From Peterkaempfera bronchialis (lineage in GTDB: Bacteria > Actinomycetota > Actinomycetes > Streptomycetales > Streptomycetaceae), in the NCBI RefSeq assembly GCF_003258605.2, contig NZ_CP031264.1, forward strand, positions 5,858,232-5,882,231: a stretch of DNA of 24,000 bases, given 5' to 3'. A program made the position numbers and the translations under genes. Positions 5,138 to 17,803 of the stretch are shown here, piece after piece (positions within the stretch are counted from its first letter, which is position 1; every line of letters begins with the position of its first letter). Under the pieces are notes generated by a model. The model saw only the letters and a list, made by a program, of their open reading frames with translations, made no database searches and had not been told where the DNA came from.

Positions 5138-6022
5138 TCAGCGCGGCCCGCCCCCGTCGGTACGGGCCTCGATGGCGTGCAGCACCGCCACCATGTCGGA
5201 CCCGCCGTACCCCAACGCCACGGTCTCGCCGAAGAGGGCGTGGCAGACATCCAGCAGCGGCGATGCCAGGTCGGACGCCCTGGCGGCCTCGGCGATCAGC
5301 CGGTTGTTCTTGAGGACGTCCAGGGCGGCGGCCTGGACGGCGAAGTCGCGGGTCAGCAGCTTGGGGGCCTTCATTCGGGACACGCTGCTCGCCATCGGGC
5401 CGGCGTCGAGCACCGCCAGGAACTGCTGCCGGTCCAGGCCGTGCCGATCGGCGAAGTGGAACGCCTCGGTGAGGCCGGTGACCATGGTGATCAGAAACAG
5501 GTTCACCGAGAGCTTCATCAGCAGCGCGCTCGGGACCGGTCCGCAGCCGAACGCCTCCCGGCACATCGGCCGGAGCAGCGGGCGGACCGCCTCCACCGCC
5601 GTCTGCGCTCCGGCCAGCATCGCCACCAGCTGTCCGGCCTCCGCGGGCTTGCGCGAGCCGGAGACGGGAGCCTCGACATAGCTGCCGCCGGCCGCGTGGA
5701 TGTCGGCTTCGAGCCCGCGTGAGTAGTCGGGCGAGGTCGTCCCCATGTGGACGATCGTGTGCTGTGCGACCAGGGCGGCGAAGTCCGGTGTGCCACGGCC
5801 CAGGGCGGAGTCGATCGCGGCGCCGTCGGCCAGCATGAGGATCACGACGCGGGCCTGCTTGAAGACCTCGGCGGGAGTCGCCGCCACCGTGGCACCGGCC
5901 GCACGCAGCGGCTCGCACTTGGCGGCGGTGCGGTTCCAGACGACCAGCGCAGTCCCGGACCGGGCCAGATTGAGGGCCATGGGCTGCCCCATGACGCCAA
6001 GGCCCAGGAAACCCACATCCAC
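5138..6022 (-). CDS. NAD(P)-dependent beta-hydroxyacid dehydrogenase (3-hydroxyisobutyrate / 6-phosphogluconate dehydrogenase-like family)
   Basis: The N-terminal Rossmann motif is [19 protein letters not shown], and the family motif VEAPVSGS is present further in. The GTG 6022 start has agaggg upstream. ATG 6061 is an alternative start but lies inside the predicted operator. Confidence 0.8.
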
Positions 6023-6046
6023 TGCGCACCGCCCTCTGCTCTGGTC

Positions 6047-6062
6047 TATGACGCTCGTCATA
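6047..6062. promoter_or_regulatory. Palindromic operator candidate 1 (TATGACG-CT-CGTCATA)
   Basis: This is a perfect 7+7 inverted repeat in the AT-richer divergent region between the dehydrogenase and the TetR gene. Confidence 0.5.
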
Positions 6063-6073
6063 ATAGTGATCCC

Positions 6074-6089
6074 CATGACGGCCGTCATA
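6074..6089. promoter_or_regulatory. Palindromic operator candidate 2 (cATGACG-GC-CGTCATa)
   Basis: The core ATGACGGCCGTCAT is a perfect 14-bp palindrome with the same half-site as candidate 1. The two centres are 27 bp apart. Confidence 0.5.
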
Positions 6090-6176
6090 GTGGGTCTGTG
6101 TGCGTCGTCTATAAGCTGGCCCGGCCTGCGGGGGAGACGACCGTTCCCCCGCCCGTCAGTCGGTTGGAGGTCGGCG

Positions 6177-6818
6177 ATGGCGGTTTCCGAGCGGGGGCCG
6201 CGCGAGCGGATGGTGTTCAGCGCGGCGCAGCTCATCCGGCGCGACGGGGTCGCCGCGACGGGCATGCGTGATGTCGTCGCCCATGCGCAGGCGCCGCGCG
6301 GATCGCTCCAGCACTACTTCCCCGGCGGCAAGGAGCAGCTTGTCAACGAGGCCGTGGACTGGGCCGGCCGCTATGCCGCCAAGCGCGTCGGCCGCTTCCT
6401 CGCCGAGCTGTCCGAGCCGTCCGAGCTGTCCGAGCTGTCCGAGCTGTCCGAGCCGTCCGAGCCGTCGCCGAGCGGGCTCTTCGCCGCGATGGTGCGGCAG
6501 TGGACCGATGAGTTCGAGGCGGTCGGGTTCGCGTCGGGTTGCCCTGTTGCGGCGGCGACGGTGGATTGCGCGGAGTCCACCGCCTCCACCAGAGCCGCTG
6601 CCGCAGCCGCGTTCGCCCGCTGGAACCGGCCGGTGGCCGAGGCGCTGAGGGAGATGGGCGTCCCGGCCCAGCGGGCCGACGCGCTCGCGACGCTGATGAT
6701 CAGCGCATTGGAGGGAGCGATCCTGATCGCCAGATCCGAGCAGGACGTCCGCGCCCTCACCACCGTGGCACGGGAACTCGGGCCCCTCCTGGACGGCGCT
6801 GTCACCCGAGGGGACTGA
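6177..6818 (+). CDS. TetR-family transcriptional regulator
   Basis: ATG 6177 is preceded by ggagg 6 nt upstream. The N-terminal HTH is [45 protein letters not shown]. It is divergent from the dehydrogenase. Confidence 0.85.
6402..6473 (+). repeat. In-frame 9-bp tandem repeat (TCCGAGCYG, 6 clean units plus degenerate flanks) inside the TetR gene
   Basis: It encodes [24 protein letters not shown], read directly from the sequence. Confidence 0.85.
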
Positions 6819-6859
6819 CGCGGCAGGCGGGGCCCGCCGTGCGGCGGAGGCGTACGGCC

Positions 6860-9172
6860 TCAGCCGCTGATCCGCAGGGCTGCCACCCCGTCCGGCGTGC
6901 CCGCCACCAGCTGCGCGTCCCCGGACAGGACCAGTGCCGTGACGGGGCAGCCGAGCCGCAGGTCCAGCTCGGTACCGACGTCGTCCAGCCGACGCACCCG
7001 CAGCAGCCCGTCCGCCCAGGCGGCGGCCACCACCAACCCCCGGTCGATAGCGACGGCGGCCACGGCGGTCACCGGGCAGGGGCGGGCGTCCCACGGTTCG
7101 GGCATCGGGTCGGCGCCGGGTCCCCAGAGCCGTACGCAGCCGTCCAGGCCACCGCTGACCAGCAGCGGCACACCCTGGCCGACCGGCGCGTCGGCCGGCA
7201 GGGCGACGCCCGAGAGTGCGGTGACCGGTCCCCGGTGGAGCCGGTGCCGCTCCTCCCGCCAGTGCACCCGACCCTCCACGTCGCCCACTGCGGGCGGCTC
7301 GCTCGGCAGCCCGGCGAGACAGGCCACCGCGCTCAGCTCGGCGGCGGCCCGCTGCCGCAGCAGATCCAGGGCCGCTGTCAGGTGGTACGGCTCCAGACCG
7401 GCCGGTACACCCGAGCCGGCGGCGGCGGCGGGGGCGGCGGTGGCGGTGGCGGGGGCGGCGGCGTCGAAGGCGGCCTGGATACGCGCCCCCACCTGGGCAC
7501 CCTGGTCGGCGGGGGCCAGCACCTCGGGCACGCCCCAGACGTCCAGCAGGACGACGCTGCCGCCCGGAGCGCAGGCCAGCGACCGCAGCGGCCTGGGCTC
7601 GGGGACGGCGATCCGTCCGGTCGGGTGACCGTCGGCCGCCGACAGGATGCGGACGGCGCCCGTCGGGTCGGCCAGCAGCAGCTGCCCGGCGTACGGGCCG
7701 GTGCCCGCCGCTGCGGCGGCCACCGGGCCCGGCCAGCGACCGGCCGAGCCCGCAGCGGGACGCCACTGCGCCCATTGCGCCTGCCACCCCGCGCCGGCGG
7801 CCGTCGGGGCCAGTCGCTCGGCGGCCGTGTCGTCGCGGCCCAGCAGCCGGGTCCGCAGTACGGCGGCTCGTACGGCCGGGTCGTCCTGCTCGACCAGCGC
7901 GGGCCCGGCGGCGTGCCAGGCGGCGGCGAGGGCGGCGTTCGGGGTACCGGCCTCCAGGGCGGCGGTCACCGCCACCGGGTGGGCGTGCACCAGGAAGGCC
8001 GGGTCGGAGAGCAGTTCGCCGGAGTTGCCCGCGAGCAGGGTGTGGGTGAGCAGCAGGGACAGCCGGTCGGGGTCGGCCGAGGGCAGGTCGGGGCCTCCGC
8101 CGTCGGCCCGGGGCACCGTCCGGGCCAGGGACCGCACCGCTGCGGTGTGGTCCGGTTCGGTGGCCGCGACCACGGAGGGCAGCGGCAGCGGACGCAGCCA
8201 CCAGCCATCGGCGGCGGGGGTGGCCGCCGGGAGCCATCGGGCGGCCTCCCGGACCGCTTCGGCCTCGCCGTACAGGGCGGTCCAGGCGTCCAGGCCGATG
8301 GGGCGGTCCACTGCCGCCAGCGCCGCGACGGCGGCCCTGGCGTTCTCCGGCACCGCCGCCCACCACGCCCGGCAGACGGCCTCCGCCTCCGCGCCGCCCG
8401 CCGCCGTGCCCGCAGTCTCTGCGCCGACCGCCCCCGCCGCTGCCTCCGCGTCAACCGCCTTCGCGCTCGCCGCTGCCTCTGCGCCGACCGCCCCCGCCGC
8501 CGCGTCGCCCGCACTGGACGGGGCCTGCGGGGTGCGGGCGGCGAGCAGGGCCAGGCCGGGGTTGGGGTACACCTGGTCCGCCGTGAAGGCGGAGTGGCCC
8601 CGGGTCGACGCGGCGTACCAGGCGGCGAACCGCTCGCGGTCCGTCCACTGCGGATCGTCCAGGTCCAGCACCGCCGGGTCGGCGACGGCGGTGAAGGCGT
8701 CGGCCAGGGCGGAGCCGGTCGCGGCGTCGACGACCATGCGCAGGTGGGGGAGGGCGAGCAGCGGGTCCAGCAGTTCGGAGACCAGGCGCTGCGGCTCGTC
8801 GGGCAGCCCGGGGCCGCCCGCCAGGTGCAGGTCGGCGACGCAGACCACGGTGGTGCGGGCGTCCTGCTCCAGCGCGGCGACCAGATCGCCGGGCGTACGG
8901 GCGGGGACGTTCAGCTGGGCGGCCATCAGCCAGGTGGCGCTCCGCACCGTGAGACCGGCGGCGGGCAGCAGCGAGTGGACGCGCTGCGTGTGCGGCGTGG
9001 CCGGGTCGGTGCAGGCGGCGGCCAGCCATGCCAGCAGGTGGGTGCGGCCGCTGCCCGGCGAACCCGTGACCCGGCAGAGCCGAGGCGCCCGGTCGTCCTG
9101 CCGCCAGCCCAGCAGTGCCCGTCCGGCGGGCCGCCGTCCTGCCCGTAGCGGTGGTATCCGGCGCTCTTCCAC
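6860..9172 (-). CDS. P-loop NTPase (STAND/NACHT-like) with C-terminal WD40-type repeats; Walker A Lys replaced by Arg
   Basis: GTG 9172 has gggaggagag 6 nt upstream and lies 23 nt after the upstream stop. Walker A is GSPGSGRT and Walker B-like is TTVVCVADL. The C-terminal WD-like blades are LLVSGGLDGCVRLWGP, AAAWADGLLRVRRL, LVAGTPDGVAALRI and LLADPTGAVRIL. The track ORF N-terminus (9173-9556) overlaps the upstream gene and was discarded. Confidence 0.75.
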   Translation of the reverse strand: MEERRIPPLRAGRRPAGRALLGWRQDDRAPRLCRVTGSPGSGRTHLLAWLAAACTDPATPHTQRVHSLLPAAGLTVRSATWLMAAQLNVPARTPGDLVAALEQDARTTVVCVADLHLAGGPGLPDEPQRLVSELLDPLLALPHLRMVVDAATGSALADAFTAVADPAVLDLDDPQWTDRERFAAWYAASTRGHSAFTADQVYPNPGLALLAARTPQAPSSAGDAAAGAVGAEAAASAKAVDAEAAAGAVGAETAGTAAGGAEAEAVCRAWWAAVPENARAAVAALAAVDRPIGLDAWTALYGEAEAVREAARWLPAATPAADGWWLRPLPLPSVVAATEPDHTAAVRSLARTVPRADGGGPDLPSADPDRLSLLLTHTLLAGNSGELLSDPAFLVHAHPVAVTAALEAGTPNAALAAAWHAAGPALVEQDDPAVRAAVLRTRLLGRDDTAAERLAPTAAGAGWQAQWAQWRPAAGSAGRWPGPVAAAAAGTGPYAGQLLLADPTGAVRILSAADGHPTGRIAVPEPRPLRSLACAPGGSVVLLDVWGVPEVLAPADQGAQVGARIQAAFDAAAPATATAAPAAAAGSGVPAGLEPYHLTAALDLLRQRAAAELSAVACLAGLPSEPPAVGDVEGRVHWREERHRLHRGPVTALSGVALPADAPVGQGVPLLVSGGLDGCVRLWGPGADPMPEPWDARPCPVTAVAAVAIDRGLVVAAAWADGLLRVRRLDDVGTELDLRLGCPVTALVLSGDAQLVAGTPDGVAALRISG
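8417..8500. repeat. 60-bp-period in-frame tandem duplication inside the NTPase-WD40 gene
   Basis: The identical 24-mer ctctgcgccgaccgcccccgccgc occurs at 8417-8440 and 8477-8500. It encodes a duplicated AAGAVGAE... Ala-rich segment. Confidence 0.75.
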
Positions 9173-9195
9173 GGTGCTCTCCTCCCGTGCGCCGG

Positions 9196-9975
9196 CTACT
9201 GCTGCTCGGCCACGTGCATCATCAGGTCCTTGATGCCCTGCTCCCGGGAGTCCGCGGTCTCCCCGTAGTCGAAACTGTGGGTGAACTCGGCCTCCGGGAA
9301 GGTACGAGCCATCCACAGCGCACAGTAGTGACCGGGCATCAGACAGGGCTCCAACTCGCAGTAGACCCTGGTGACCGCCTCCGGCTGGACGCCCGCAGCC
9401 GAGAGCCGGTGCCACACCAGCTCCTCGGGGTGCGGCAGGCCGGGCGCGGTGGAGTCGGTGACGATCTGGCGTTCGCCGCGCGCGCCGACGTACTCGAAGG
9501 CCGCCGAGAAGTGGACGTTCAGCGGGTGGCGGATGTCGTCCAGCACCCGGGGCCACCAGCCCTCGCGGTCCGCGAACGCCGCCTCGTCGATGTCGCGCAG
9601 CTCCGCGCGCAGCCGGCGGTAGGTCGCCAGCGCGGCGTCCATGCCATGGGCGTCGTCGATACCGGGCAGCAGCCGGTCCAGGGTCAGCAGCGAGGCGGCG
9701 AATGCCTCCGTGGTGCTGTTGACCGGCATCGGTTCGTTCAGCAGCAGCGCCCGTACGCTGCCGTCGTCGGCCAGTCGGAGCTCCGCGCCCCGGTCGCTGC
9801 CGAGCCGCAGCCCGCCGTCCTCGGCCTCGTCCCGCACCTCCGGCGCCGCGAAGTACGGCCCCACCTGCACCGGCAGCCCCACGGACCCCAGCAGCCCGGG
9901 GCCACCGGCGTACCGGTGCAGTCCACCGGGCCCGAAGTGGGTGGTGAGGGCGGTCTCAAGGTCGCTGCTGCTCAT
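9196..9975 (-). CDS. SUKH-4 immunity-like domain fused to a C-terminal SCP1.201/DddA-family deaminase domain
   Basis: The N-terminal ~150 aa parallel the neighbouring SUKH-4 protein (GLPVQVGPYF, LRLGSDRGAELRLADDGSV, PVNSTTEAFAASLLTL, AAFADREGWWPRVLDD). The C-terminus carries HPEE...VYCELEPCLMPGHYC, that is HxE plus PCx6C zinc ligands. The spacing is the same as in the toxin at 10596..11711. Confidence 0.75.
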   Translation of the reverse strand: MSSSDLETALTTHFGPGGLHRYAGGPGLLGSVGLPVQVGPYFAAPEVRDEAEDGGLRLGSDRGAELRLADDGSVRALLLNEPMPVNSTTEAFAASLLTLDRLLPGIDDAHGMDAALATYRRLRAELRDIDEAAFADREGWWPRVLDDIRHPLNVHFSAAFEYVGARGERQIVTDSTAPGLPHPEELVWHRLSAAGVQPEAVTRVYCELEPCLMPGHYCALWMARTFPEAEFTHSFDYGETADSREQGIKDLMMHVAEQQ

Positions 9976-10038
9976 ATGCTGAGCCCTTCACTGTCGTCGG
10001 CGGCAGGAGCCGACAATACCGGACCGTATGCGGGCGGT

Positions 10039-10578
10039 TCAGTACAGGAACGAATCGAAGTACTCGCTCCACAGTCCGTCCGGCTGGGCAAACGCGATGG
10101 AATCCCTGGTGCCGACCTCATTGCGGACGGATTCCTCGGCCCGGGAGAGATCCTCCTGGTCCGGGTCCTCGCCCGGAATCTCGCGGGCGATGAGGAGAAG
10201 GGTGTAGGCAAAGGCGGAGACATCCGCGTTCACCGGCTCGTACAACTCCTCGGCACCCGGCGAGACATAGACGACCCCGGTGTCCCGGTCGATGTAGACG
10301 CCGGCGTCGCGGACCGAGATATAGCCGATTTTCAGGAGATCCCGGTCCTCCCAGGCGTCGAGCTCCACCTCGTCCTCGGGCTCGATCGCGCCCCCCGGTG
10401 CCCCGGGGTTCGCGGCGGCGACCGCCGAGGTCATCAGGAAGAGACCGGAGCAGTGGGGGATGCCCGTCTCCCAGAGGAAGCGCGCCGTCTCCTGGTGGTG
10501 GACCAGGTCGGCGATCTTCTGCTCGTCAGCCCTCAGCAGGTCCCCGGTGGAGGACGCCGGGTCGATGTCGAAGAGCAC
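10039..10578 (-). CDS. SUKH-4 (SMI1/KNR4 superfamily) immunity protein, cognate to the upstream deaminase toxin
   Basis: GTG 10578 lies 17 nt after the toxin stop, with gggcgggag upstream. Motifs are ETARFLWETGIP, LLKIGYISVRDAGVYIDRDTGVVYV, EPVNADVSAFAYTLLLI and IAFAQPDGLWSEYF. The remainder of track ORF 10039..11733 is a junk extension. Confidence 0.7.
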   Translation of the reverse strand: MLFDIDPASSTGDLLRADEQKIADLVHHQETARFLWETGIPHCSGLFLMTSAVAAANPGAPGGAIEPEDEVELDAWEDRDLLKIGYISVRDAGVYIDRDTGVVYVSPGAEELYEPVNADVSAFAYTLLLIAREIPGEDPDQEDLSRAEESVRNEVGTRDSIAFAQPDGLWSEYFDSFLY

Positions 10579-10595
10579 GTGGGGACTCCCGCCCG

Positions 10596-11711
10596 CTAGT
10601 CGAAGTTCGTGGTGCCCGCGGTGCCGCGGTGGTTTCCGCCCGCATGGTCGGAAACCAGCTGGTCCATATACCTCTGGAACGGCGCATTGCGCAGACCCTT
10701 GTCTTTGACCGAGCTGTCGTACTGTACACCATGGGTGACGTCGAGATTGGGGTTGTGATCGGGGTCCTGCACGTACATGTAAAGCCACCGTTCGCATGTT
10801 GAACCGCTTTGGCACGGCCTTCGCTCGGTATACAGACCATCGATCCCGTGCTCCTGGCCACCCTTTACGAGCGGGTATCCGATCGAGCGCTCCGAGTGGT
10901 TTCTCTTGTTGCTGCTGCGGCCTACCAGTATGTAATCCTTGCCGTCCTCGCCGACATATCGGAGCGACGCGTAGTTGTTGCCCTTGCTGTAGTCCTGCTT
11001 GGCCCTTCTGACGTTCTCCACCGCGAGCGAGAGGTCCGACGGCTCGGTGAGGCGCCGGGACTGCACCACATCGGGATCGTCGTTGCCGACGCGCTTCCGG
11101 GTCCGCTGGTTGGTGGAGTAGGCCTGCTTCTCCTTCGCGGTCGGGTCGTTGACCTTGCCGTTCGAGGTCACCGAGTCGAGGTGGGTGCCCGTCGTACCGG
11201 TCACCTGCGAGAGCTTTCCGTTCTTCAGCTGGTGCACCTGGCCGTCGTCGTCCACGAAGAAGGTCGGGGTGTGCCCGCCGCCCCCTCCCTGCCCGCCGCC
11301 GTTGCCGGACCCGCCGTTCCCGGACCCGCCGTTCCCGGACCCGCCGCTTCCGGAGCCCTCGCCGCCGCCGTGTCCGATCCCGCGCGTGTCGTGCTGCCGG
11401 TCGAGGCTGTCGAGCTCGGTCCGGTGGTGCTGGTCGGTCTGCTTGGTGTTGCGGTGGTGCTGCTTGACCCGGTCGGCGATGCTGTCGAGGTGGCCGGTGA
11501 CCTTCCCCAGGCCGTCGTCGAGGACGTCCTCGACCCGCTCGATGGCGCCGACCAGGTGGCCGAAGGCACCTCCCTTGCCACCGCTTCGGCGGCGGCGGGC
11601 CGAGCCGGTCCGGAAGTGCGTGTGGCGGTCCCTGGCCTTCTGGCTGGTGGCCTTGAACCCCGAGTGCGCGTTCTCGAAGTCGGCGTCGTCCAGCTCCATC
11701 ATGTCGCTCAT
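10596..11711 (-). CDS. Polymorphic-toxin effector: helical N-region, Gly/Ser/Asn linker, C-terminal SCP1.201/DddA-family nucleic-acid deaminase domain
   Basis: The C-terminus reads NHSERSIGYPL...GLYTERRPCQSGSTCERW, that is HxE then PCx5C about 25 residues later, the signature of zinc deaminases. The ATG overlaps the upstream stop (ATGA), with GGGAGGGA 9 nt upstream. Confidence 0.8.
   Translation of the reverse strand: MSDMMELDDADFENAHSGFKATSQKARDRHTHFRTGSARRRRSGGKGGAFGHLVGAIERVEDVLDDGLGKVTGHLDSIADRVKQHHRNTKQTDQHHRTELDSLDRQHDTRGIGHGGGEGSGSGGSGNGGSGNGGSGNGGGQGGGGGHTPTFFVDDDGQVHQLKNGKLSQVTGTTGTHLDSVTSNGKVNDPTAKEKQAYSTNQRTRKRVGNDDPDVVQSRRLTEPSDLSLAVENVRRAKQDYSKGNNYASLRYVGEDGKDYILVGRSSNKRNHSERSIGYPLVKGGQEHGIDGLYTERRPCQSGSTCERWLYMYVQDPDHNPNLDVTHGVQYDSSVKDKGLRNAPFQRYMDQLVSDHAGGNHRGTAGTTNFD
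11296..11355. repeat. 15-bp in-frame tandem repeat x4 encoding (GSGNG)n linker in the toxin
   Basis: The units are ccgccgttgccggac / ccgccgttcccggac / ccgccgttcccggac / ccgccgcttccggag, read directly from the sequence. Confidence 0.85.
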
Positions 11712-12373
11712 ATGCCGAGTCCCTCCCGCACACCGGTCGTACCGGCGTTCAGACCGCTGTCGAGTGCCTTGCCCAGGTCCGGGACGTCGCCGTCACCCAG
11801 GTAGCTGTTGAGTCCGTCGGTGGCGAGCTGCACCACGATGCCCTCGATCACCGAGACCACCGCGTCCTCGACCATGCCGGTGGCGTAGTCGATCAGCTGC
11901 TGCTCCAGCTCGCGCAGCAGCCGGCGGCAGATCTCCCGGCAGACCGTGGTCTCGGCCAGCGCCGCCGCCTCCGAGAGCCCGAAGGTGAAGGCCGCGGCCG
12001 CCGTCGCGGCGGCGATCGAGGCGGCCAGGATGCCCAGCTGGACGACGACCGCGCCCTTGGCTATCTCCACGGCCACCGCCGCCCCGTCCAGCACCGTGCC
12101 CATCACCCGCAGGGCGTCGGCGAAGTCCTGGAGGTGCCCCTTGGAGGTCTTCTCCCAGGCGGCGGCGAACGCCTCGATCGCCTCACCTTTGCTGGACCCC
12201 GCAGTGAGGTGGTACGACGCCTGCGTCCCCGCCACCCGCAGGTCCTCCAGGTGGTCCGCCATCGCCCGGTAGTCGTCGGCCGAGGCCCGCAGCTCGTCCT
12301 CGTCCACATCGGGCCAGTCGATGCCGATCACGTCCAGGAGCCACACCAGCTCGCTCGGCAGCATCACGGACAT
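11708..12373 (-). CDS. WXG100-like / T7SS-associated N-terminal trafficking-domain protein encoded as a stand-alone gene
   Basis: The N-terminus MSVMLPSELVWLLDVIGIDWPDVDEDELRASADDYRAMA matches the LPxxL..lG..WPxxDED opening that I recall from N-termini of actinobacterial polymorphic toxins. It is followed by helices and a hydrophobic stretch AVVVQLGILAASIAAATAAAAFTF. No enzymatic domain is present. Confidence 0.6.
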   Translation of the reverse strand: MSVMLPSELVWLLDVIGIDWPDVDEDELRASADDYRAMADHLEDLRVAGTQASYHLTAGSSKGEAIEAFAAAWEKTSKGHLQDFADALRVMGTVLDGAAVAVEIAKGAVVVQLGILAASIAAATAAAAFTFGLSEAAALAETTVCREICRRLLRELEQQLIDYATGMVEDAVVSVIEGIVVQLATDGLNSYLGDGDVPDLGKALDSGLNAGTTGVREGLGI

Positions 12374-12832
12374 GCGCTCCCACCCCCGTACTCGCCCACC
12401 TGATGTCCAGTCAAACTATCGCGTATCCCACCCGCTTTCACGTGCACATGCCGGATCCGGTTTCCCCCGGGCCCTGTCCTGCCCGCCCATGCCGGGAAGG
12501 GAGTGGCGTCGGTGCCGGGGCTGGTGGGGTTGTGCTGTTCGACGGGGGCGTGAATTCGGGCTTTTCGGGGGCGGATGTGACGTGGGTTATATGGCGTGGG
12601 TCACATATGGGGCGGTTTGGCATGGTCTGCGGTGTGATCTGGGCAATATGACCTGCCTCACTATGGGCTCGCGTAGTGGATATTTGGGGCGTTCCGGTGC
12701 TGTTCGGGGCGGGTGCGGGGTGCTGGAGCCTGCTGGGTGTACGAGGCGCCTTAGTAAGAAGTGGTGATTGACCTGAGGTTTGAGCGCCGTCAACACTCGC
12801 TGATATCCCCCGACGGAAGAGGTAATTCCCGT
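12374..12832. promoter_or_regulatory. 459-bp divergent intergenic region (toxin operon <-> SLT gene), lower GC and G-tract-rich
   Basis: No ORF here has coding-like composition. It contains the inverted repeat atgtgac-N18-gtcacat (12575-12606), the direct repeat gtgctgttcg (12532 and 12697) and several GGGG tracts. Confidence 0.4.
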
Positions 12833-13312
12833 ATGCAGTTCTCCGCGATGTCCAAGTTCGGTCACCTGGTCAAGGCCAAGAGGATTTCCGTGGGCGTCGG
12901 CGCAGCCGGCGTCGCCGTTCTGGCCGGTGTTGTCGGCGCTTCGCCGGCCTCCGCTGCCACCGCCTCCAGCGCCTCCGCCGCCTCCGCCCGCAGCGGCAGT
13001 GTCGACGGCTGGATCAAGCAGTCGCTGTCCGTCATGCACAAGCACGGCATACCCGGCAGCTACAACGGCATCTACCGCAACCTGATGCGCGAATCCAGCG
13101 GAAACCCGATGGCCATCAACAACTGGGACTCGAACGCGAGGGCCGGCATCCCGTCGAAGGGGCTGCTCCAGGTCATCGAGCCGACCTTCAAGGCGTACCA
13201 CGTCAAGGGCACGTCCTGGGACATCTACAACCCGGTCGCGAACATCACCGCCGCCTGCAACTACGCGGCCCATGTCTACGGCTCGATCGACAATGTGAAC
13301 TCGGCTTACTGA
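12833..13312 (+). CDS. Secreted lytic transglycosylase (SLT/GEWL-like domain)
   Basis: The signal peptide is MQFSAMSKFGHLVKAKRISVGVGAAGVAVLAGVVGASPASA. The core is LMRESSGNPMAINNWDSNARAGIPSKGLLQVIEPTF, containing the ES..N catalytic Glu motif and the GLMQ-like GLLQV. ATG 12848 is an alternative start. Confidence 0.8.
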   Translation: MQFSAMSKFGHLVKAKRISVGVGAAGVAVLAGVVGASPASAATASSASAASARSGSVDGWIKQSLSVMHKHGIPGSYNGIYRNLMRESSGNPMAINNWDSNARAGIPSKGLLQVIEPTFKAYHVKGTSWDIYNPVANITAACNYAAHVYGSIDNVNSAY

Positions 13313-13860: not shown

Positions 13861-14907
13861 ATGCCGACCCTTTGCCGTCCTGCCGTAGCGGTTCCCGAAC
13901 ACACCATCTCCATGGCGGAGACGCTTGCCCTGGCCCGCCGGCTGCACGCCGCGCACCCGCAACTCGGCCTGGTCCTGAGGCTCATCGAGAACACGGGTGT
14001 GCGTGAGCGCCATCTCGTACGCCCCATCGCCGAGACGCTGATCCACCCGGGCTTTGAAGCGCGCAACGCGGTCTATGAAGAGGAGGCCAAGGCGCGCGTC
14101 CCCGAGGTGGTCCGGACGGCGCTGGGCAGTGCCGACATCGGCAGCCGGGACATCGACGCGATCTTCTTTGTCTCCTGCACCGGGTTTCTGATGCCCTCGT
14201 TGACCGCGTGGATGATCAACAATCTCGGGTTCCGCAATGACACACGGCAGATCCCCATCGCCCAGCTGGGCTGTGCGGCGGGCGGCGCCGCGATCAACCG
14301 GGCGTGCGACTTCTGCCTCGCGTATCCGGAAGCCAACGCCCTGATCGTCGCCTGCGAGTTCTGCTCGCTCTGCTATCAACCCACCGACACCGGTGTGGGA
14401 TCGCTGCTGTCGAACGGGCTCTTCGGCGACGCGGTGGCTGCCGCAGTGGTCAGAGGCGACGGCGGCGTCGGAGTCCGGCTGGAGCGGAACAGCTCCTACC
14501 TGGTGCCCGACACCGAGGAGTGGATCTGCTACGCGGTCAAGGCGACCGGTTTTCACTTCCAGCTGGACAAGCGGGTGCCCACCACGATGGCGATGCTCGC
14601 TCCGGCCCTGCACACCCTGGCGGCCAGCCACGGCTGGGATGCCTCGGCGCTCGACTTCTACATCATCCATGCGGGCGGCCCCCGGATCCTCGAAGACCTC
14701 CGCCAGATCCTGGGCGTCGAGGCATCGGCCTTCCGGCACAGCAGGGGGACGCTCACCGACTACGGGAACATCGCCAGCGCCGTGGTGCTGGACTCGCTGC
14801 GCCGCATGTTCGACGAGGATTCCCTCCCCGACCGGGCCCAGGGGGTGATCGCCGGGTTCGGCCCCGGGATCACCGCCGAGACCTGCGTGGGGACATGGTC
14901 GGCGTGA
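13861..14907 (+). CDS. rppA: Type III polyketide synthase, 1,3,6,8-tetrahydroxynaphthalene synthase
   Basis: MPTLCRPAVAVPEH...FVSCTGFLMPSL (catalytic Cys)...IIHAGGPRIL (His)...YGNIASAVV (Asn)...GFGPGITAE. From memory this is near-colinear with S. griseus and S. coelicolor RppA. Confidence 0.95.
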   Translation: MPTLCRPAVAVPEHTISMAETLALARRLHAAHPQLGLVLRLIENTGVRERHLVRPIAETLIHPGFEARNAVYEEEAKARVPEVVRTALGSADIGSRDIDAIFFVSCTGFLMPSLTAWMINNLGFRNDTRQIPIAQLGCAAGGAAINRACDFCLAYPEANALIVACEFCSLCYQPTDTGVGSLLSNGLFGDAVAAAVVRGDGGVGVRLERNSSYLVPDTEEWICYAVKATGFHFQLDKRVPTTMAMLAPALHTLAASHGWDASALDFYIIHAGGPRILEDLRQILGVEASAFRHSRGTLTDYGNIASAVVLDSLRRMFDEDSLPDRAQGVIAGFGPGITAETCVGTWSA

Positions 14908-14958
14908 CCGAAGACCAGACGACAACCCCCGTGCTGGGGCTGGGAAGAGGAGCACACA

Positions 14959-16161
14959 GTGGCGACCGAGACCCGCGTATGGGACTGCCCCTTCAACCAC
15001 AACCAGGCGCTTGAATTCGACCCGCTGCTCAAGCAGTTGCTCACCGAGGCGCCCATCGCCCGCATCAGCATGCCCCATGGCGACGGCCACGCCTGGCTGG
15101 TGACCCGGTACGAGGACGTCTCCACCGTGGTCACGGACCAGAGGTTCAGCCGCGCCGCCGGTATCGGGCGAGACCTGCCGAGGATGACGCCCGAGCCGAT
15201 CGCCCAGAGCGAGGCGATCAACCTGATGGACCCGCCGGCGCACACCCGGCTCCGCAAGCTGGTGGCCAAGGGGTTCACCCCCGCCCAGGTCGAGCAGATG
15301 GAGCCCAAGGTGCACGCCATCGTGGACCGTCTGCTGGACGAGATGGCCGCGCAGCCGGCTCCGGTCGACTTCACCCGGCACTTCGCGTCACGGCTGCCGA
15401 TCACCACCATCTGCGAGGTCCTGGCCATACCCGAGGCCGACCAGCCGCGCATCCGGCAACTCGCGATGGCGATGATGTCCACCTCCTCGGGGCGGCAGGC
15501 GACGCGCGAGGCCAAGGCCGAGCTGCGGGCGTACTTCCTGGACCTGTCGGCCCGCCGCAGGGAGCAGCCCGGTGAGGACCTGATCAGCGCGCTGGCCATG
15601 GCCCGGGACGGGGACGAACTGCTCGACCCGACGGAGCTGGCCGTTATGGCCATGGTGCTCACGGTCACCGGGCATGACACCAGCACCTACCAGCTCAGCA
15701 ACATCCTCTACACCCTGCTCACCCACCCCGAGCAGCTGGCACTGCTGCGCTCCCGTCCCGAGCTGCTGAACCAGGCGGTCGAGGAGCTGCTGCGGTTCAT
15801 CCCGTTCCGCCATGGAGTCGGCATCGCCCGGGTCGCCACGGAGGACGTGGAACTCGGCGGGGTGACGATCCGGGCAGGCGAGGTCGTGCATGTCTCCTAC
15901 CTCACCGCCAACCACGACCCCGAGGTGTTCGAGCGGCCGGACGAGCTGGACATCGAGCGTCCCCCCGCGATGCATATGACGTTCGGTCACGGCACGCACT
16001 ACTGCATCGGCGCCAACCTGGCCCGCGCGGAGCTGCGCATCGCCTTCGCATCGCTGCTCCAGCGCTTCCCCGAGCTGCACCTCGCCGTCCCCGCCGAACA
16101 GGTCCCGTGGCACATCGGCTCCATCTGGCGCTACCCCGAGGAGCTGCCCATCGCGTGGTAG
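14959..16161 (+). CDS. Cytochrome P450, CYP158A/P450mel-like (flaviolin/THN biaryl-coupling type by context)
   Basis: GTG 14959 has ggaagaggag upstream. The I-helix is AMVLTVTGHDTS, the ExxR motif is EELLRF and the heme loop is FGHGTHYCIGANLAR. It lies immediately downstream of rppA, as in known rppA loci. Confidence 0.9.
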   Translation: MATETRVWDCPFNHNQALEFDPLLKQLLTEAPIARISMPHGDGHAWLVTRYEDVSTVVTDQRFSRAAGIGRDLPRMTPEPIAQSEAINLMDPPAHTRLRKLVAKGFTPAQVEQMEPKVHAIVDRLLDEMAAQPAPVDFTRHFASRLPITTICEVLAIPEADQPRIRQLAMAMMSTSSGRQATREAKAELRAYFLDLSARRREQPGEDLISALAMARDGDELLDPTELAVMAMVLTVTGHDTSTYQLSNILYTLLTHPEQLALLRSRPELLNQAVEELLRFIPFRHGVGIARVATEDVELGGVTIRAGEVVHVSYLTANHDPEVFERPDELDIERPPAMHMTFGHGTHYCIGANLARAELRIAFASLLQRFPELHLAVPAEQVPWHIGSIWRYPEELPIAW

Positions 16162-16216
16162 CCCCGCAGCCCTCCCGTCGGTATCCCGTCACCGGTCCAG
16201 CAGGGGTTCGCTCAGC

Positions 16217-17803
16217 ATGGAAGACCTTCATCGTGATGCATCCGGCCTCCCGGCCGACACCCGGGGGCGGCTGGCGGAACTCAATGACACCAAGCGGCGG
16301 GCGCGTTGCGGCCCGAGCGGTCGGGCGACCGAGGTGCAGCATGCCAAGGGGAAGCTGACGGCTCGGGAGCGGATCGCGCTGCTGCTGGACGAGGGTTCGT
16401 TCAGCGAGGTGGAGCCGCTGCGGCGGCATCGGGCGTCCGGTTTCGGGCTGGAGGCCAACAAGCCCTACACCGATGGTGTGGTGACCGGGTGGGGGACGGT
16501 GTACGGGCGGACGGTGGTGGTCTATGCCCATGACTTCCGGATCTTCGGTGGTGCGCTGGGTGAGGCCCATGCGCAGAAGATCCACAAGATCATGGACATG
16601 GCCATCTCGGTGGGGGCGCCGCTGGTCTCGCTGAACGACGGCGCGGGTGCCCGGATCCAGGAGGGCGTGACCGCCCTCGCCGGTTACGGCGGCATCTTCC
16701 AGCGCAACAGCCGGGCGTCGGGGGTGATCCCGCAGATCTCGGTGATGCTCGGCCCGTGCGCGGGCGGTGCGGCGTACTCGCCGGCGCTGACCGACTTCGT
16801 CTTCATGGTCCGCGAGACCTCGCAGATGTTCATCACCGGCCCGGATGTGGTCAAGGCGGTCACCGGCGAGGACACCTCCCATGACGGGCTGGGTGGCGCG
16901 GATGTGCACGCGGAGCTGTCCGGGGTGGCGCACTTCGCCTACGACGACGAGCAGACCTGCCTGGAGGAGGTCCGCTATCTGCTCTCGCTCCTCCCGCAGA
17001 ACAACCGCGAGACACCCCCGGCGGTGCCGGCCGACGACCCGGCCGACCGGCGCTGCGAGGCGCTGCTGGACCTGGTCCCCGCCGACCCGGGCCGCTCCTA
17101 TGACATGCGCAAGGTGATCGAGGAACTGGTCGACGACGGCCAGTACATGGAGGTCCACGAGCGCTGGGCCACCAACGTCATCGTCGCGCTGGCCCGCCTG
17201 GACGGGCGGGTCGTCGGCCTGGTCGCCAACCAGCCGCAGTCCCTCGCCGGGGTGCTGGACATCGAGGCATCCGAGAAGGCCGCCCGCTTTGTGCAGCTGT
17301 GCGACGCCTTTGACATCCCGCTGCTCACCCTGCTGGACGTGCCCGGCTTCCTGCCCGGCGTCGACCAGGAGCACGGCGGCATCATCCGGCACGGCGCCAA
17401 GCTGCTCTACGCGTACTGCAACGCCACCGTGCCGCGCATCCAGCTGATCCTGCGCAAGGCGTACGGCGGCGCCTATATCGTGATGGACTCCCGCTCCGTC
17501 GGTGCCGACCTCTCCTACGCCTGGCCCACCAATGAGATCGCCGTGATGGGCGCCGAGGGCGCCGCCAACGTCATCTTCCGCCGGGAACTCGCCGCCGCCG
17601 ACGACCCCGAGGCCATGCGGATCCGCATGGTCAAGGAGTACAAGTCCGAGCTGATGCACCCCTACTACGCCGCCGAACGCGGCCTGGTGGACGACGTCAT
17701 CGACCCCGCCGACACCCGGGCGGTCCTCATCCGCGCCCTCGCCATGCTGCGCACCAAGGACGCGGCCCTGCCGCACCGCAAGCACGGCAACCCGCCGCAG
17801 TGA
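16217..17803 (+). CDS. Acyl-CoA carboxylase carboxyltransferase (beta) subunit, AccB-like
   Basis: QHAKGKLTARERIALLLDEGSF, NDGAGARIQEG, GPCAGGAAYSPALTDF and VPGFLPGVDQEHGGIIRHGAKLLYA are colinear with Streptomyces PccB/AccB. Ile at codon 421 (KAYGGAYIVMDS) is AccB-type. Confidence 0.9.
   Translation: MEDLHRDASGLPADTRGRLAELNDTKRRARCGPSGRATEVQHAKGKLTARERIALLLDEGSFSEVEPLRRHRASGFGLEANKPYTDGVVTGWGTVYGRTVVVYAHDFRIFGGALGEAHAQKIHKIMDMAISVGAPLVSLNDGAGARIQEGVTALAGYGGIFQRNSRASGVIPQISVMLGPCAGGAAYSPALTDFVFMVRETSQMFITGPDVVKAVTGEDTSHDGLGGADVHAELSGVAHFAYDDEQTCLEEVRYLLSLLPQNNRETPPAVPADDPADRRCEALLDLVPADPGRSYDMRKVIEELVDDGQYMEVHERWATNVIVALARLDGRVVGLVANQPQSLAGVLDIEASEKAARFVQLCDAFDIPLLTLLDVPGFLPGVDQEHGGIIRHGAKLLYAYCNATVPRIQLILRKAYGGAYIVMDSRSVGADLSYAWPTNEIAVMGAEGAANVIFRRELAAADDPEAMRIRMVKEYKSELMHPYYAAERGLVDDVIDPADTRAVLIRALAMLRTKDAALPHRKHGNPPQ

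What the first reader, a model, noticed from the sequence alone, without database searches (positions are those of the whole stretch)
10596..12373. Polymorphic deaminase toxin split into a stand-alone WXG100-like carrier gene and a translationally coupled SCP1.201/DddA-family deaminase gene
Seen in sequence: the 221-aa protein opens with MSVMLPSELVWLLDVIGIDWPDVDEDELRASADDYRAMA and has a hydrophobic helix but no enzymatic domain. Its stop overlaps the next ATG (ATATGAGC), and that ATG has its own SD (GGGAGGGA, 9 nt upstream). The second, 371-aa protein has no recognisable export domain. It ends in a deaminase core, HSE...(25 aa)...PCQSGSTC. Established knowledge: in actinobacterial polymorphic toxins this N-terminal domain and the C-terminal toxin are normally parts of one polypeptide. 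SCP1.201-like deaminases are the family that contains the dsDNA cytidine deaminase DddA used for base editing. Inference: a two-polypeptide carrier-plus-cargo arrangement could be an undescribed delivery mode analogous to LXG-Lap partner systems. The deaminase is also a candidate new DNA/RNA editing enzyme.
Basis: partly seen in the sequence, partly recalled or inferred. Interest (0 to 1): 0.8.

Follow-up and report, generated by a model that had tools for sequence, protein, structure and literature searches.

The report
Split type VII deaminase toxin operon
Two overlapping genes in a Streptomyces relative encode an export "handle" and a DNA-mutating deaminase toxin that are one fused protein in related bacteria; the split is real and conserved, but it is a variant of a known toxin–partner scheme and the enzyme is not a DddA relative.

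Summary
The sequence facts hold, on the minus strand. A 221-aa WXG100_2 protein (11708-12373) overlaps by ATGA a 371-aa protein (10596-11711) that ends in an HSE...PCx5C deaminase. A SUKH-4 immunity gene follows 5 nt later.

The family label is wrong. Pfam places the deaminase in XOO_2897-like (41.7 bits). SCP1.201/DddA gives no hit.

The split is not an error:
- 28 loci in Kitasatospora, Streptacidiphilus and Peterkaempfera keep two genes with an RTGA overlap.
- All surveyed Streptomyces orthologues, and one metagenome contig, are single fused proteins.
- There are two different cut sites. The commoner one falls in the turn of a roughly 100-aa helical hairpin.
- The same stand-alone carrier plus hairpin precedes HNH-nuclease cargo elsewhere.

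Most likely the two proteins assemble without a covalent link into one type VII substrate. Known parallels are EsxA/B, PE/PPE versus fused EspB, LXG-Lap and EatA-TapA1/A2. The complex itself is inferred, not shown.

The cassette always carries two more genes, which remain unexplained: a cytoplasmic SUKH-4-deaminase fusion and a NACHT/WD40-like NTPase.

Verdict: a new variant of a known kind, of moderate interest.

The parts
11708..12373 (-). Gene A: stand-alone 221-aa WXG100_2 (CpnT-N-terminal-like) trafficking protein, the 'carrier'.
   Evidence: Pfam PF25547 scores 56.8 bits (cut-off 27); PF06013 WXG100 scores 26.8 (cut-off 27.3). It is 100% identical to the NCBI protein 'WXG100 family type VII secretion target [Peterkaempfera bronchialis]'.
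12065..12301 (-). WXG100-like helix-turn-helix of A (residues ~25-103). The turn reads GSSKGEA, so the W of WxG is absent.
   Evidence: AF2 pLDDT is 79-91. Foldseek matches EsxA 3zbh with TM(target) 0.85, rmsd 1.9 A and probability 1.00.
11975..12076 (-). Hydrophobic segment of A (residues ~100-133). It is modelled as the tip of a long helical hairpin that turns at FTFG132L.
   Evidence: Kyte-Doolittle maximum is 2.01. K106, A117, T130 and G132 are invariant in 28 sequences. Helices 64-130 and 133-189 are modelled.
11708..11727 (-). Coupling junction: SD-like GGGAGGGA (11720-11727), 8-nt spacer, and B's ATG (11709-11711) overlapping A's TGA (11708-11710).
   Evidence: Sequence read. An RTGA overlap is present in all 28 split loci.
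10596..11711 (-). Gene B: 371-aa toxin, the 'cargo', made of helical hairpin, Gly-rich linker, pre-toxin region and XOO_2897-like deaminase.
   Evidence: It is 100% identical to the NCBI 'nucleic acid/nucleotide deaminase domain-containing protein'.
11382..11711 (-). Nt domain of B (residues 1-~110): a two-helix hairpin that forms the second half of the trafficking module in fused toxins.
   Evidence: An iterated HMM finds it at residues ~205-360 of fused toxins and at the N-terminus of HNH cargo. AF2 helices B9-43 and B51-108 have pLDDT 76-90. There is a weak end-to-end match to EsxB 3fav/1wa8 (E~0.09) and to the EspC and WXG100 Pfam families.
11274..11375 (-). Gly/Ser/Asn-rich flexible linker. 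It includes a 15-nt x3.9 tandem repeat at 11296-11354.
   Evidence: pLDDT is below 50.
10992..11273 (-). Conserved pre-toxin region (TFFVDDDGQVHQLKNGKL... to ...EPSDLSLAVENVRRA).
   Evidence: D155, G157, V159 and G165, and the block P224...R236 A237, are invariant. AF2 pLDDT is 90-96 for the small beta-sheet. There is no Pfam hit.
10599..10985 (-). XOO_2897-like deaminase domain. The catalytic HSE is at 10890-10898 and the zinc motif PCQSGSTC at 10794-10817.
   Evidence: PF14440 scores 41.7 bits over residues 243-331. H272, E274, E296, P299, C300 and C306 are invariant. The best fold matches are AID and APOBEC, both weak.
10039..10590 (-). SUKH-4 immunity gene (183 aa), starting 5 nt after B's stop.
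   Evidence: PF14435 scores 83.5 bits. One to three copies are present in the related loci.
9196..9975 (-). Conserved cytoplasmic fusion protein 'SD': SUKH-4 domain (N-terminal) plus a second XOO_2897 deaminase (C-terminal).
   Evidence: PF14435 scores 51.4 and PF14440 scores 92.2 bits. HPE and C-x6-C are conserved in 45 sequences. The family has 282 clusters.
6860..9172 (-). Conserved ~770-aa protein 'BIG': NACHT/AAA_16-like P-loop domain plus a WD40-like C-terminus. It starts at a GTG preceded by GGGAGGAG.
   Evidence: It lies next to the toxin genes in 45 of 49 genome loci.

Best explanation
The finding is the first two genes of a five-gene, minus-strand polymorphic-toxin operon of Peterkaempfera bronchialis: A | B | SUKH-4 | SUKH4-deaminase fusion | NACHT/WD40-like NTPase.

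B is a secreted XOO_2897-like cytidine-deaminase toxin. The downstream SUKH-4 protein neutralises it in the producer.

In the fused relatives the N-terminal trafficking module has three parts in order. First comes a WXG100_2 hairpin, then a hydrophobic helical hairpin, and then a second ~100-aa helical hairpin, called Nt here. In this lineage the gene has been cut just before the Nt hairpin. A therefore carries the WXG100_2 part, and B keeps Nt, a linker and the toxin.

The ATGA overlap couples their translation. The two chains are then proposed to re-associate through their helices into one composite type VII (ESX) substrate. This would work as EsxA/EsxB, PE/PPE, LXG-Lap and EatA-TapA1/A2 do.

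Shown here: domain identities, fused orthologues, conservation of the split, two distinct cut sites, and the shared Nt domain on different cargo.

Inferred: A-B binding, export by the T7SS, deamination of target-cell DNA, and neutralisation by SUKH-4.
For: Domain identities:
- WXG100_2, 56.8 bits.
- XOO_2897-deam, 41.7 bits.
- SUKH-4, 83.5 bits.

Fused orthologues:
- P0013, 594 aa, carries PF25547 and PF14440 in a locus with the same gene order.
- All 21 Streptomyces loci surveyed are fused.
- So is S. megasporus L062.

Conservation of the split:
- 28 loci are split with an RTGA overlap, 12 ATGA and 16 GTGA.
- In the toxin-domain tree the fused L002 nests inside the split clade.

Two conserved cut sites:
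- Type 1 lies before helix 1 of Nt. It is found in the window, L060 and the HNH loci L055, L056 and L059.
- Type 2 lies in the turn between Nt helices 1 and 2, in 22 loci. There a single hairpin is divided between the two polypeptides, which makes sense only if they reassemble.

Shared module on different cargo:
- Stand-alone WXG100_2 genes with a 4-nt overlap precede cargo with the same Nt domain but an HNH-like C-terminus (20.7 bits against a cut-off of 21.4), followed by SUKH-4.
- 20 of 149 A-homologue representatives carry Nt directly after WXG100_2.
- About one third of the 150 closest representatives are stand-alone sized.

Structure:
- A's hairpin superposes on EsxA (TM 0.85).
- The Nt hairpin reaches pLDDT 76-90 in the concatenated model.
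- Nt matches EsxB end to end, but weakly.

Literature:
- The XOO_2897 clade is linked to T7SS export and SUKH4 immunity (PMC3239186).
- The clade has ssDNA C-deaminase activity (bioRxiv 10.1101/2023.05.21.541555).
- WXG100-like partners bind the helical trafficking domains of toxins (bioRxiv 10.64898/2026.08.24.746431).
- The CpnT N-terminus is EspB-like and CpnT needs EsxEF (PMC8092274).
Against: - No T7SS machinery gene (EccC and the like) lies in the 24-kb window. Only the window was available, so the rest of the genome could not be checked.
- Neither A nor the Nt domain has a YxxxD/E export motif. The semi-conserved HxxxD of Nt reads TxxxD in this protein.
- The WxG tryptophan is absent, and WXG100 (PF06013) scores just below its cut-off.
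- The A-B interface was not demonstrated. AF2 gave no contact or PAE output. A's residues 121-140 and 191-225 have low confidence, and pTM is only 0.48.
- The similarity of Nt to EsxB, EspC and WXG100 is sub-threshold (E 0.0004-0.09). Nt does not match A's own profile (hhalign probability 2%).
- In K. phosalacinea and Embleya the carrier gene is not adjacent to the cargo gene, so coupling is not obligatory.
Confidence: 0.68

Rival explanations
1. A does not carry B. It is an independent T7SS substrate or membrane-active accessory protein. For example, it could form a pore or translocator through its hydrophobic hairpin, as EsxE/EsxF do for CpnT. B would then be exported through its own Nt hairpin with other partners.
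For: - A has a TM-grade hydrophobic stretch (KD 2.01).
- The Nt domain is itself weakly EsxB/EspC-like, so B might pair with a different WXG100 protein.
- The carrier gene is unlinked from the cargo gene in K. phosalacinea and Embleya.
- Long-helix alignments to the alpha-pore-forming toxins AhlB and SmhB appear in Foldseek, but they are not significant.
Against: - In fused orthologues A's domain and Nt are one chain.
- Type-2 splits divide the Nt hairpin itself between A and B, which requires physical reassembly.
- The RTGA coupling is conserved in 28 loci.
Confidence: 0.15
2. The cassette is an intracellular conflict or defence island, not a secreted-toxin system. On this reading the deaminases would be regulated cytoplasmic effectors. 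The NACHT/WD40 NTPase would control them and the SUKH-4 domains would hold them in check. The WXG100_2 domain would have a non-secretory role.
For: - A second, cytoplasmic SUKH4-deaminase fusion and a STAND-like NTPase are conserved in 45 of 49 loci.
- No secretion machinery lies in the window.
Against: - A's hairpin matches secreted EsxA proteins.
- The N-terminal module sits in front of varied toxin C-termini, and homologues reach lengths of 1300-1950 aa. Orphan toxin fragments with SUKH-4 also occur. These are hallmarks of polymorphic secreted toxins (PMC3482391).
- No protein of the cassette hits PADLOC.
Confidence: 0.1
3. A single fused A-B protein is still made, by ribosomal frameshifting (-1) at the overlap. 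The two-gene appearance would then be only apparent.
For: B's frame is -1 relative to A at a 4-nt overlap, and fused proteins are the norm in Streptomyces.
Against: - No slippery heptamer is present at either junction type (GGCATATGAGC; AGCTTCGARTGAGC).
- B always begins with its own ATG or GTG, and a G-rich SD-like stretch is common upstream.
- In two lineages the genes are unlinked or on opposite strands.
Confidence: 0.03
4. The split is a sequencing or assembly error, or a recent pseudogenising frameshift of a conventional fused toxin.
For: A single-base indel would suffice to fuse or split the frames.
Against: - The same architecture occurs in 28 independent assemblies from several genera, at precisely conserved junctions.
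- Both ORFs have a coding GC3 of 0.86-0.92.
- The orthologous pair in Kitasatospora sp. NPDC057223 is 75% identical in A and has the same ATGA.
Confidence: 0.01

Closest known systems
XOO_2897-like deaminase toxins with WXG N-termini and SUKH-4 immunity (Iyer, Zhang, Rogozin & Aravind 2011, PMC3239186; Pfam PF14440)
   Same: It has the same deaminase clade by HMM and the same HxE / PC...C zinc site. It also has the conserved Glu before the PC motif, the predicted T7SS association and the SUKH-4 immunity partner.
   Different: Here the trafficking domain is a separate polypeptide. The zinc motif is PCx5C rather than PCxxC. The clade description did not cover the split or the linked SUKH4-deaminase and NTPase genes, as far as the searchable text shows.
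CpnT (Rv3903c) of M. tuberculosis with EsxE/EsxF (PMC8092274)
   Same: Sources name A's Pfam family (WXG100_2) 'CpnT-like N-terminal domain'. CpnT likewise has a helical ESX-substrate-like N-terminus, a C-terminal toxin, a downstream immunity gene and co-encoded small Esx partners that are needed for secretion.
   Different: CpnT is one polypeptide with a YxxxE motif and an NAD+ glycohydrolase toxin, in a diderm mycobacterium. The window protein is split, lacks YxxxD/E and carries a deaminase.
T7SS toxins with separately encoded WXG100-like partners: LXG-Lap1/Lap2 (PMC9600955, PMC10801868), EsaD-EsxB/C/D (PMC10653861), EatA-TapA1/TapA2 (bioRxiv 10.64898/2026.08.24.746431)
   Same: A toxin with an N-terminal helical trafficking domain is co-encoded with small helical partner(s). 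The partners bind that domain to make a composite secretion signal.
   Different: In those systems the main targeting domain (LXG and similar) stays on the toxin, and the partners are ~100-aa accessory proteins. Here the partner is 221 aa and is the orthologue of the toxin's own N-terminal domain in sister genera. It also carries a hydrophobic hairpin. No binding data exist for it.
PE/PPE heterodimers versus single-chain EspB (discussed in PMC8092274)
   Same: This is a precedent that the same T7SS helical bundle can be built from two chains or from one fused chain.
   Different: It is a different family with no toxin cargo. In the present family fused and split forms are orthologous, and there are two alternative cut sites.
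DddA / SCP1.201-like deaminases (Pfam PF14428; PDB 6U08)
   Same: Both are bacterial interbacterial deaminase toxins of the same superfamily with an adjacent immunity protein.
   Different: It is a different clade (C-terminal-hairpin division) and is delivered by the T6SS. There is no Pfam hit and no sequence hit. DddA ranks below AID/APOBEC, with only 67 aligned columns, in the first fold search and is absent from the top 50 in the second.
T6SS 'specialised' (fused to VgrG/PAAR) versus 'cargo' (non-covalent) effectors (own knowledge)
   Same: The logic is the same: a toxin may be fused to the secreted structural or targeting component, or ride on it non-covalently.
   Different: The machinery and folds are unrelated, so this is an analogy only.

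Membership tests
XOO_2897-like deaminase (PF14440) | HMM score at or above the curated cut-off | tested here: met
   41.7 bits against 27, E 1.4e-10, residues 243-331. All 13 homologues carry PF14440.
XOO_2897-like deaminase (PF14440) | Zinc/catalytic motifs HxE and PCx(n)C, and the conserved Glu in the insert before the PC motif (Iyer 2011, Table 1) | tested here: met
   H272, E274, E296 (in YTER), P299, C300 and C306 are invariant in 13 sequences. The Cys spacing is x5, not x2.
XOO_2897-like deaminase (PF14440) | Helix-4 division fold with truncation after helix 4 and affinity to AID/APOBEC | tested here: inconclusive
XOO_2897-like deaminase (PF14440) | Cytidine deaminase activity on nucleic acid | not testable with these tools
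   Activity is known only for other clade members in a base-editor reporter (bioRxiv 10.1101/2023.05.21.541555).
SCP1.201 / DddA-like deaminase (PF14428) | HMM or sequence similarity to the family or to DddA | tested here: not met
   No PF14428 hit at E<=0.1. The B-family profile finds no DddA chain in the PDB at E<=1.
WXG100_2 / CpnT-N-like (PF25547) | HMM score at or above the cut-off, at the N-terminus | tested here: met
   56.8 bits against 27, residues 11-143. All homologue matches start at residue ~1.
WXG100 superfamily (PF06013 / TIGR03930) | HMM score at or above the cut-off | tested here: not met
   PF06013 scores 26.8 against 27.3. TIGR03930 scores 26.3 against 44.85.
WXG100 superfamily (PF06013 / TIGR03930) | Helix-turn-helix fold of ~100 residues | tested here: met
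   Foldseek matches EsxA 3zbh, 2vs0 and 3o9o with TM(target) 0.82-0.85, rmsd ~1.9 A and probability 1.00.
WXG100 superfamily (PF06013 / TIGR03930) | W-x-G motif in the hairpin turn | tested here: not met
   The turn reads GSSKGEA. The Gly (G63) is nearly invariant but there is no Trp.
Type VII secretion substrate | YxxxD/E (or HxxxD/ExxhxxxH) export motif after the helix-turn-helix | tested here: not met
   No Tyr lies in the relevant part of A. In Nt the nearly invariant D90 is preceded by H in most members but by T in the window.
Type VII secretion substrate | Presence of the T7SS machinery and T7SS-dependent export | not testable with these tools
   No machinery gene lies in the 24-kb window. 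The rest of the genome was not available.
Polymorphic toxin system (Zhang et al. 2012) | Conserved N-terminal trafficking module with variable C-terminal toxins, an adjacent immunity gene and orphan cassettes | tested here: met
   The same carrier plus Nt module precedes deaminase or HNH-like cargo. SUKH-4 is adjacent. An orphan deaminase fragment with SUKH-4 occurs in L062.
Toxin plus WXG100-like partner complex (LXG-Lap / EatA-Tap type) | Physical binding of the partner to the toxin's helical trafficking domain | not testable with these tools
   Support is indirect only: fused orthologues, a split hairpin and coupling. AF2 output gives no contacts.
SUKH-4 immunity protein (PF14435) | HMM score at or above the cut-off, encoded directly downstream of the toxin | tested here: met
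   83.5 bits against 25.5, with a 5-nt gap after B.

The most novel reading that the evidence does not exclude
The five genes form one functional system. In it, the secreted deaminase toxin is permanently coupled to a cytoplasmic 'self-immunised' deaminase (the SUKH-4 + XOO_2897 fusion) and to a NACHT/WD40 STAND-like NTPase.

One reading is a surveillance or retaliation module. The SUKH-4 domain of the fusion would sense incoming non-self toxin. Together with the NTPase, it would then unleash the fused deaminase or control export of the cell's own toxin.

Together with the recurrent gene fission of the carrier, this would be a toxin-immunity-sensor architecture that has not been described for type VII systems.
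Probability: 0.12. Interest if true: 0.8.

Novelty: new variant of a known kind. Interest (0 to 1): 0.45.

Why it matters
No type VII-secreted toxin has, to my knowledge, been characterised experimentally in Streptomycetaceae. What their ESX system exports is largely open.

This family offers a natural experiment. The same toxin exists in three forms:
- as one chain;
- as two chains cut before a hairpin;
- as two chains cut inside that hairpin.

That is a direct handle on how T7SSa recognises composite helical signals. It also lets one test whether a carrier can be shared among cargos, since deaminase and HNH cargo use the same module.

The deaminase is a further, divergent member (PCx5C) of a clade already mined for base editors. 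It is a modest rather than unique editing candidate, and it is not expected to share DddA's double-strand activity.

The invariably linked SUKH4-deaminase fusion and NACHT/WD40 NTPase are unexplained and may be the more novel part.

Tried and rejected
- **SCP1.201/DddA assignment.** Rejected by Pfam and by the PDB profile search.
- **Sequencing error or pseudogene.** Rejected by the 28-locus survey.
- **Programmed frameshift.** No slippery site is present.
- **Nt as a duplicate of A's WXG100_2 domain.** hhalign gives probability 2%, so no such relationship is claimed.
- **AF2 of concatenated A+B.** The first run, with 32 rows, was poor outside the hairpin and the deaminase. A second run, with 57 rows that included fused homologues, raised Nt to pLDDT 76-90. 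No PAE or contacts are returned, so the interface stays unverified.
- **Foldseek hits to helical bundles and to AhlB/SmhB.** These have rmsd 25-33 A and were ignored.
- **Defence-system models (PADLOC).** No hit for any of the five proteins.
- **Promoter and terminator scan of 6500-13000.** Nothing found, which is uninformative in a 71% GC genome.
- **The divergent SLT transglycosylase as a dedicated wall hydrolase for export.** It is absent from every related locus.
- **Recombination between the carrier and toxin trees.** The NJ trees are compatible with a basal position of the window lineage, so no recombination claim is made.
- **Literature searches.** They found no description of the split, or of the SUKH4-deaminase/NTPase linkage. 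The library excludes most subscription papers.
Full report
**1. Observation**

Both ORFs are real and lie on the minus strand.
- A is 11708..12373 and encodes 221 aa.
- B is 10596..11711 and encodes 371 aa.
- A's TGA (11708-11710) overlaps B's ATG (11709-11711).
- GGGAGGGA sits 8 nt upstream of that ATG, at 11720-11727.

Third-position GC of 0.86-0.92 marks both ORFs as coding in this 71% GC window. Both proteins are 100% identical to annotated Peterkaempfera bronchialis proteins. One is named 'WXG100 family type VII secretion target' and the other 'nucleic acid/nucleotide deaminase domain-containing protein'.

B contains HSE (272-274), then 24 residues, then PCQSGSTC (299-306). These residues are invariant in 13 homologues. 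A contains a hydrophobic stretch with a Kyte-Doolittle maximum of 2.01 at residues 108-127.

**2. Domain identities**

Pfam gives these assignments:

| Protein | Family | Score (bits) | Cut-off (bits) |
|---|---|---|---|
| A | WXG100_2, PF25547 | 56.8 | 27 |
| A | classical WXG100, PF06013 | 26.8 | 27.3 |
| B | XOO_2897-deam, PF14440 | 41.7 | 27 |
| next gene, 10039..10590 | SUKH-4 | 83.5 | 25.5 |

The SUKH-4 gene starts 5 nt after B's stop.

B matches no other deaminase family at E<=0.1. A profile of the B family finds no solved structure at E<=1, so DddA is not recovered.

Iyer et al. 2011 (PMC3239186) define the XOO_2897 clade. They place it in the Helix-4 division beside AID/APOBEC. They also list T7SS export and SUKH4 immunity for it.

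Fold searches with the AF2 models agree in ranking but not in significance. AID and APOBEC come first (E 0.035-0.6). DddA comes lower, with 67 aligned columns, or is absent from the top 50.

A preprint reports ssDNA cytidine-deaminase activity for XOO_2897-clade members in a base-editor reporter (10.1101/2023.05.21.541555).

**3. The split is conserved, and fused orthologues exist**

Among B's homologues, P0013 (594 aa, from a metagenome) carries both PF25547 and PF14440. Its locus has the order fused toxin | SUKH-4 | SUKH4-deaminase | large protein.

A scan of one genome per species returned 49 loci. I classified them with phmmer on six-frame ORFs.
- Every Kitasatospora and Streptacidiphilus locus is split, as are 'Saccharothrix ST-888', 'Streptomyces sp. 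NRRL F-6131' and one MAG. Their gene order is A | B | SUKH-4 (1-3 copies) | SUKH4-deaminase | large protein. The two K. phosalacinea loci (L001, L026) are the exception, with the carrier on the opposite strand.
- All 21 other Streptomyces loci with both domains encode one fused ORF. Their order is SUKH4-deaminase | large protein | fused toxin | SUKH-4.

Adding the window, L060 and the non-deaminase loci gives 28 split junctions. All 28 have an RTGA overlap, 12 ATGA and 16 GTGA.

In a neighbour-joining tree of the toxin domain, Streptomyces (fused) and the other genera (split) form two clades. The fused metagenome gene nests inside the split clade. Fission and fusion have therefore both happened. 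A sequencing error is excluded.

**4. Two cut sites and a second helical domain**

B's first ~110 residues form a conserved two-helix domain, called Nt here. An iterated profile started from it gave the following.
- It finds Nt at residues ~205-360 of the fused Streptomyces toxins.
- It finds Nt at the very N-terminus of cargo proteins encoded after other stand-alone WXG100_2 genes. L055 was first detected at iteration 4 (E 7.7e-4, against 8,740 ORFs), before it was included in the profile.

Those cargo proteins end in an HNH-like domain (20.7 bits against a cut-off of 21.4) and are followed by SUKH-4.

Twenty of 149 representatives of A's family carry Nt directly after the WXG100_2 region.

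An alignment of concatenated or fused N-terminal modules shows two sharply conserved boundaries.
- **Type 1** lies just before Nt helix 1. It occurs in the window, L060 and the HNH loci L055, L056 and L059.
- **Type 2** lies in the turn between Nt helices 1 and 2. It occurs in 22 Kitasatospora and Streptacidiphilus loci, where A ends ...VSFE and B begins MSD... or MTN...

In type 2 a single hairpin is shared between the two polypeptides. This is the strongest indirect evidence that A and B must reassemble.

**5. Structure**

The first AF2 run of the A+B concatenation used 32 rows. It was confident only for A's hairpin and for the deaminase.

The second run used 57 rows, including fused homologues.

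| Region (numbering of the concatenated model) | pLDDT |
|---|---|
| A 1-120 | 79-91 |
| A 141-190 | 73-81 |
| Nt helices, model residues 230-330 | 76-90 |
| pre-toxin and deaminase | 83-97 over most of it |

- The A tail and the Gly-rich linker stay disordered, and pTM is 0.48.
- The modelled helices are A 25-58, 64-130 and 133-189, with the hydrophobic tip turning at the invariant G132. In B they are 9-43 and 51-108.
- A's hairpin superposes on EsxA crystal structures (TM 0.82-0.85).
- Nt matches M. tuberculosis EsxB end to end, but only at E~0.09. Some members touch the EspC, WXG100 or DUF6317 Pfam families at E 1e-4 to 1e-2.
- The tools return no contacts, so the A-Nt interface is inferred and not shown.

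**6. Mechanism proposed**

The N-terminal trafficking module of this toxin family is a multi-helix, ESX-substrate-like bundle. CpnT's N-terminus is modelled on the single-chain four-helix EspB (PMC8092274).

In Peterkaempfera the module is encoded in two pieces whose translation is coupled. The pieces assemble into the composite substrate, and the T7SS exports it. The Gly-rich linker, which includes a 15-nt x3.9 repeat, tethers the pre-toxin and deaminase domains. SUKH-4 protects the producer.

This matches the established rule that T7SS toxins are targeted through a helical domain bound by co-encoded WXG100-like partners (10.64898/2026.08.24.746431; PMC10730906 abstract). The difference is that the 'partner' here is the orthologue of the toxin's own N-terminal domain in sister genera, and it carries a TM-grade hydrophobic hairpin.

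Weak points:
- There is no YxxxD/E motif.
- There is no WxG tryptophan.
- There are no T7SS genes in the window.
- The carrier and cargo genes are unlinked in K. phosalacinea and Embleya.

**7. How general the arrangement is**

A's family has 1031 clusters at 50% identity with E<=1e-3. Lengths among the 150 closest are as follows.

| Length | Number of representatives |
|---|---|
| under 300 aa | 52 |
| 300-450 aa | 46 |
| 450-900 aa | 27 |
| over 900 aa | 25 |

Stand-alone carriers are therefore common rather than a curiosity. Some short entries may be fragments.

**8. The rest of the cassette**

Two further genes travel with the toxin in 45 of 49 genome loci. They also appear in both loci reached from the other side.

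*The SUKH4-deaminase fusion (9196..9975).*
- It is a 259-aa cytoplasmic protein with SUKH-4 at the N-terminus and a second XOO_2897 deaminase (92 bits) at the C-terminus.
- HPE and C-x6-C are conserved in 45 sequences.
- The family has 282 clusters and 49-60% identity across genera. That is more conserved than B.
- Its domains are distant paralogues of B's deaminase and of the stand-alone SUKH-4.

*The large protein (6860..9172).*
- It is ~770 aa and starts at a GTG behind GGGAGGAG.
- It has a NACHT/AAA_16-like P-loop that scores below the Pfam cut-offs, and a WD40-like C-terminus.
- The Walker A lysine is replaced by arginine in the window and in L060.

Neither protein hits PADLOC. I found no description of this linkage. 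Zhang et al. 2012 note only that SUKH is occasionally fused to toxins. Their role is unexplained.

**9. Verdict**

The carrier-plus-cargo interpretation is the best-supported reading. It is strengthened by the fused orthologues and by the two independent cut sites.

It is nevertheless a variant of a known T7SS theme rather than a new delivery mode. The deaminase belongs to a clade already known and already screened for editing.

Overall interest is moderate (0.45). The linked SUKH4-deaminase and NTPase pair is the most open question.

Noticed in passing
window 9196-9975 (-): This is a conserved cytoplasmic protein that fuses a SUKH-4 immunity domain to a second XOO_2897 deaminase with an apparently intact active site. 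It has 282 clusters across Streptomycetaceae and always lies next to the toxin genes.
   Followed up: partly
window 6860-9172 (-): This is a ~770-aa NACHT/AAA_16-like P-loop plus WD40-like protein, conserved in the cassette. Its Walker A reads GSGRT here and GSGRS in L060, but GxGKS in the other homologues.
   Followed up: partly
window 11296-11354: A 15-nt tandem repeat (x3.9, 93% matches) encodes the (GSGNG)n linker of the toxin. It is a likely site of length variation.
   Followed up: no
window 12761-13312 (+): A secreted SLT-domain lytic transglycosylase is transcribed divergently from the toxin operon. It is not present beside the cassette in any related locus, so it is probably unrelated.
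   Followed up: yes
window 13861-17803 (+): This is a small biosynthetic cluster: a type III polyketide synthase (chalcone/stilbene synthase domains), a cytochrome P450 and an acyl-CoA carboxyl transferase (662 bits).
   Followed up: no
L062:11444-12859: In S. megasporus a DDE transposase is followed by an orphan 98-aa XOO_2897 fragment and another SUKH-4 gene. This is a classic orphan toxin/immunity cassette.
   Followed up: no
L046:1043-2630 and 5352-6915: One Streptomyces locus carries two fused WXG100_2-deaminase toxin genes about 2.7 kb apart on the same strand, and lacks the SUKH4-deaminase and NTPase genes nearby.
   Followed up: no
L061:3973-10004 (Embleya hyalina): The cargo deaminase (460 aa, with a Pro/Gly-rich N-terminus and no long Nt domain detected) and the stand-alone WXG100_2 gene are separated by SUKH-4, the fusion protein and the NTPase gene. 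The carrier and cargo are therefore not translationally coupled here.
   Followed up: partly
L004:495-1343: About 4 kb upstream of the cassette in K. purpeofusca lies a separate small toxin pair: a 112-aa T7SS_signal + CdiA_C-like protein with a SitI3 immunity protein.
   Followed up: no
L058:4001-6319 (S. dysideae): The longer 340-390 aa Streptomyces WXG100_2 proteins, annotated 'PE-PGRS family', have no toxin domain. In this locus the WXG100_2 gene is followed two genes downstream by a 199-aa protein with a sub-threshold WXG100 match (23.7 bits).
   Followed up: no
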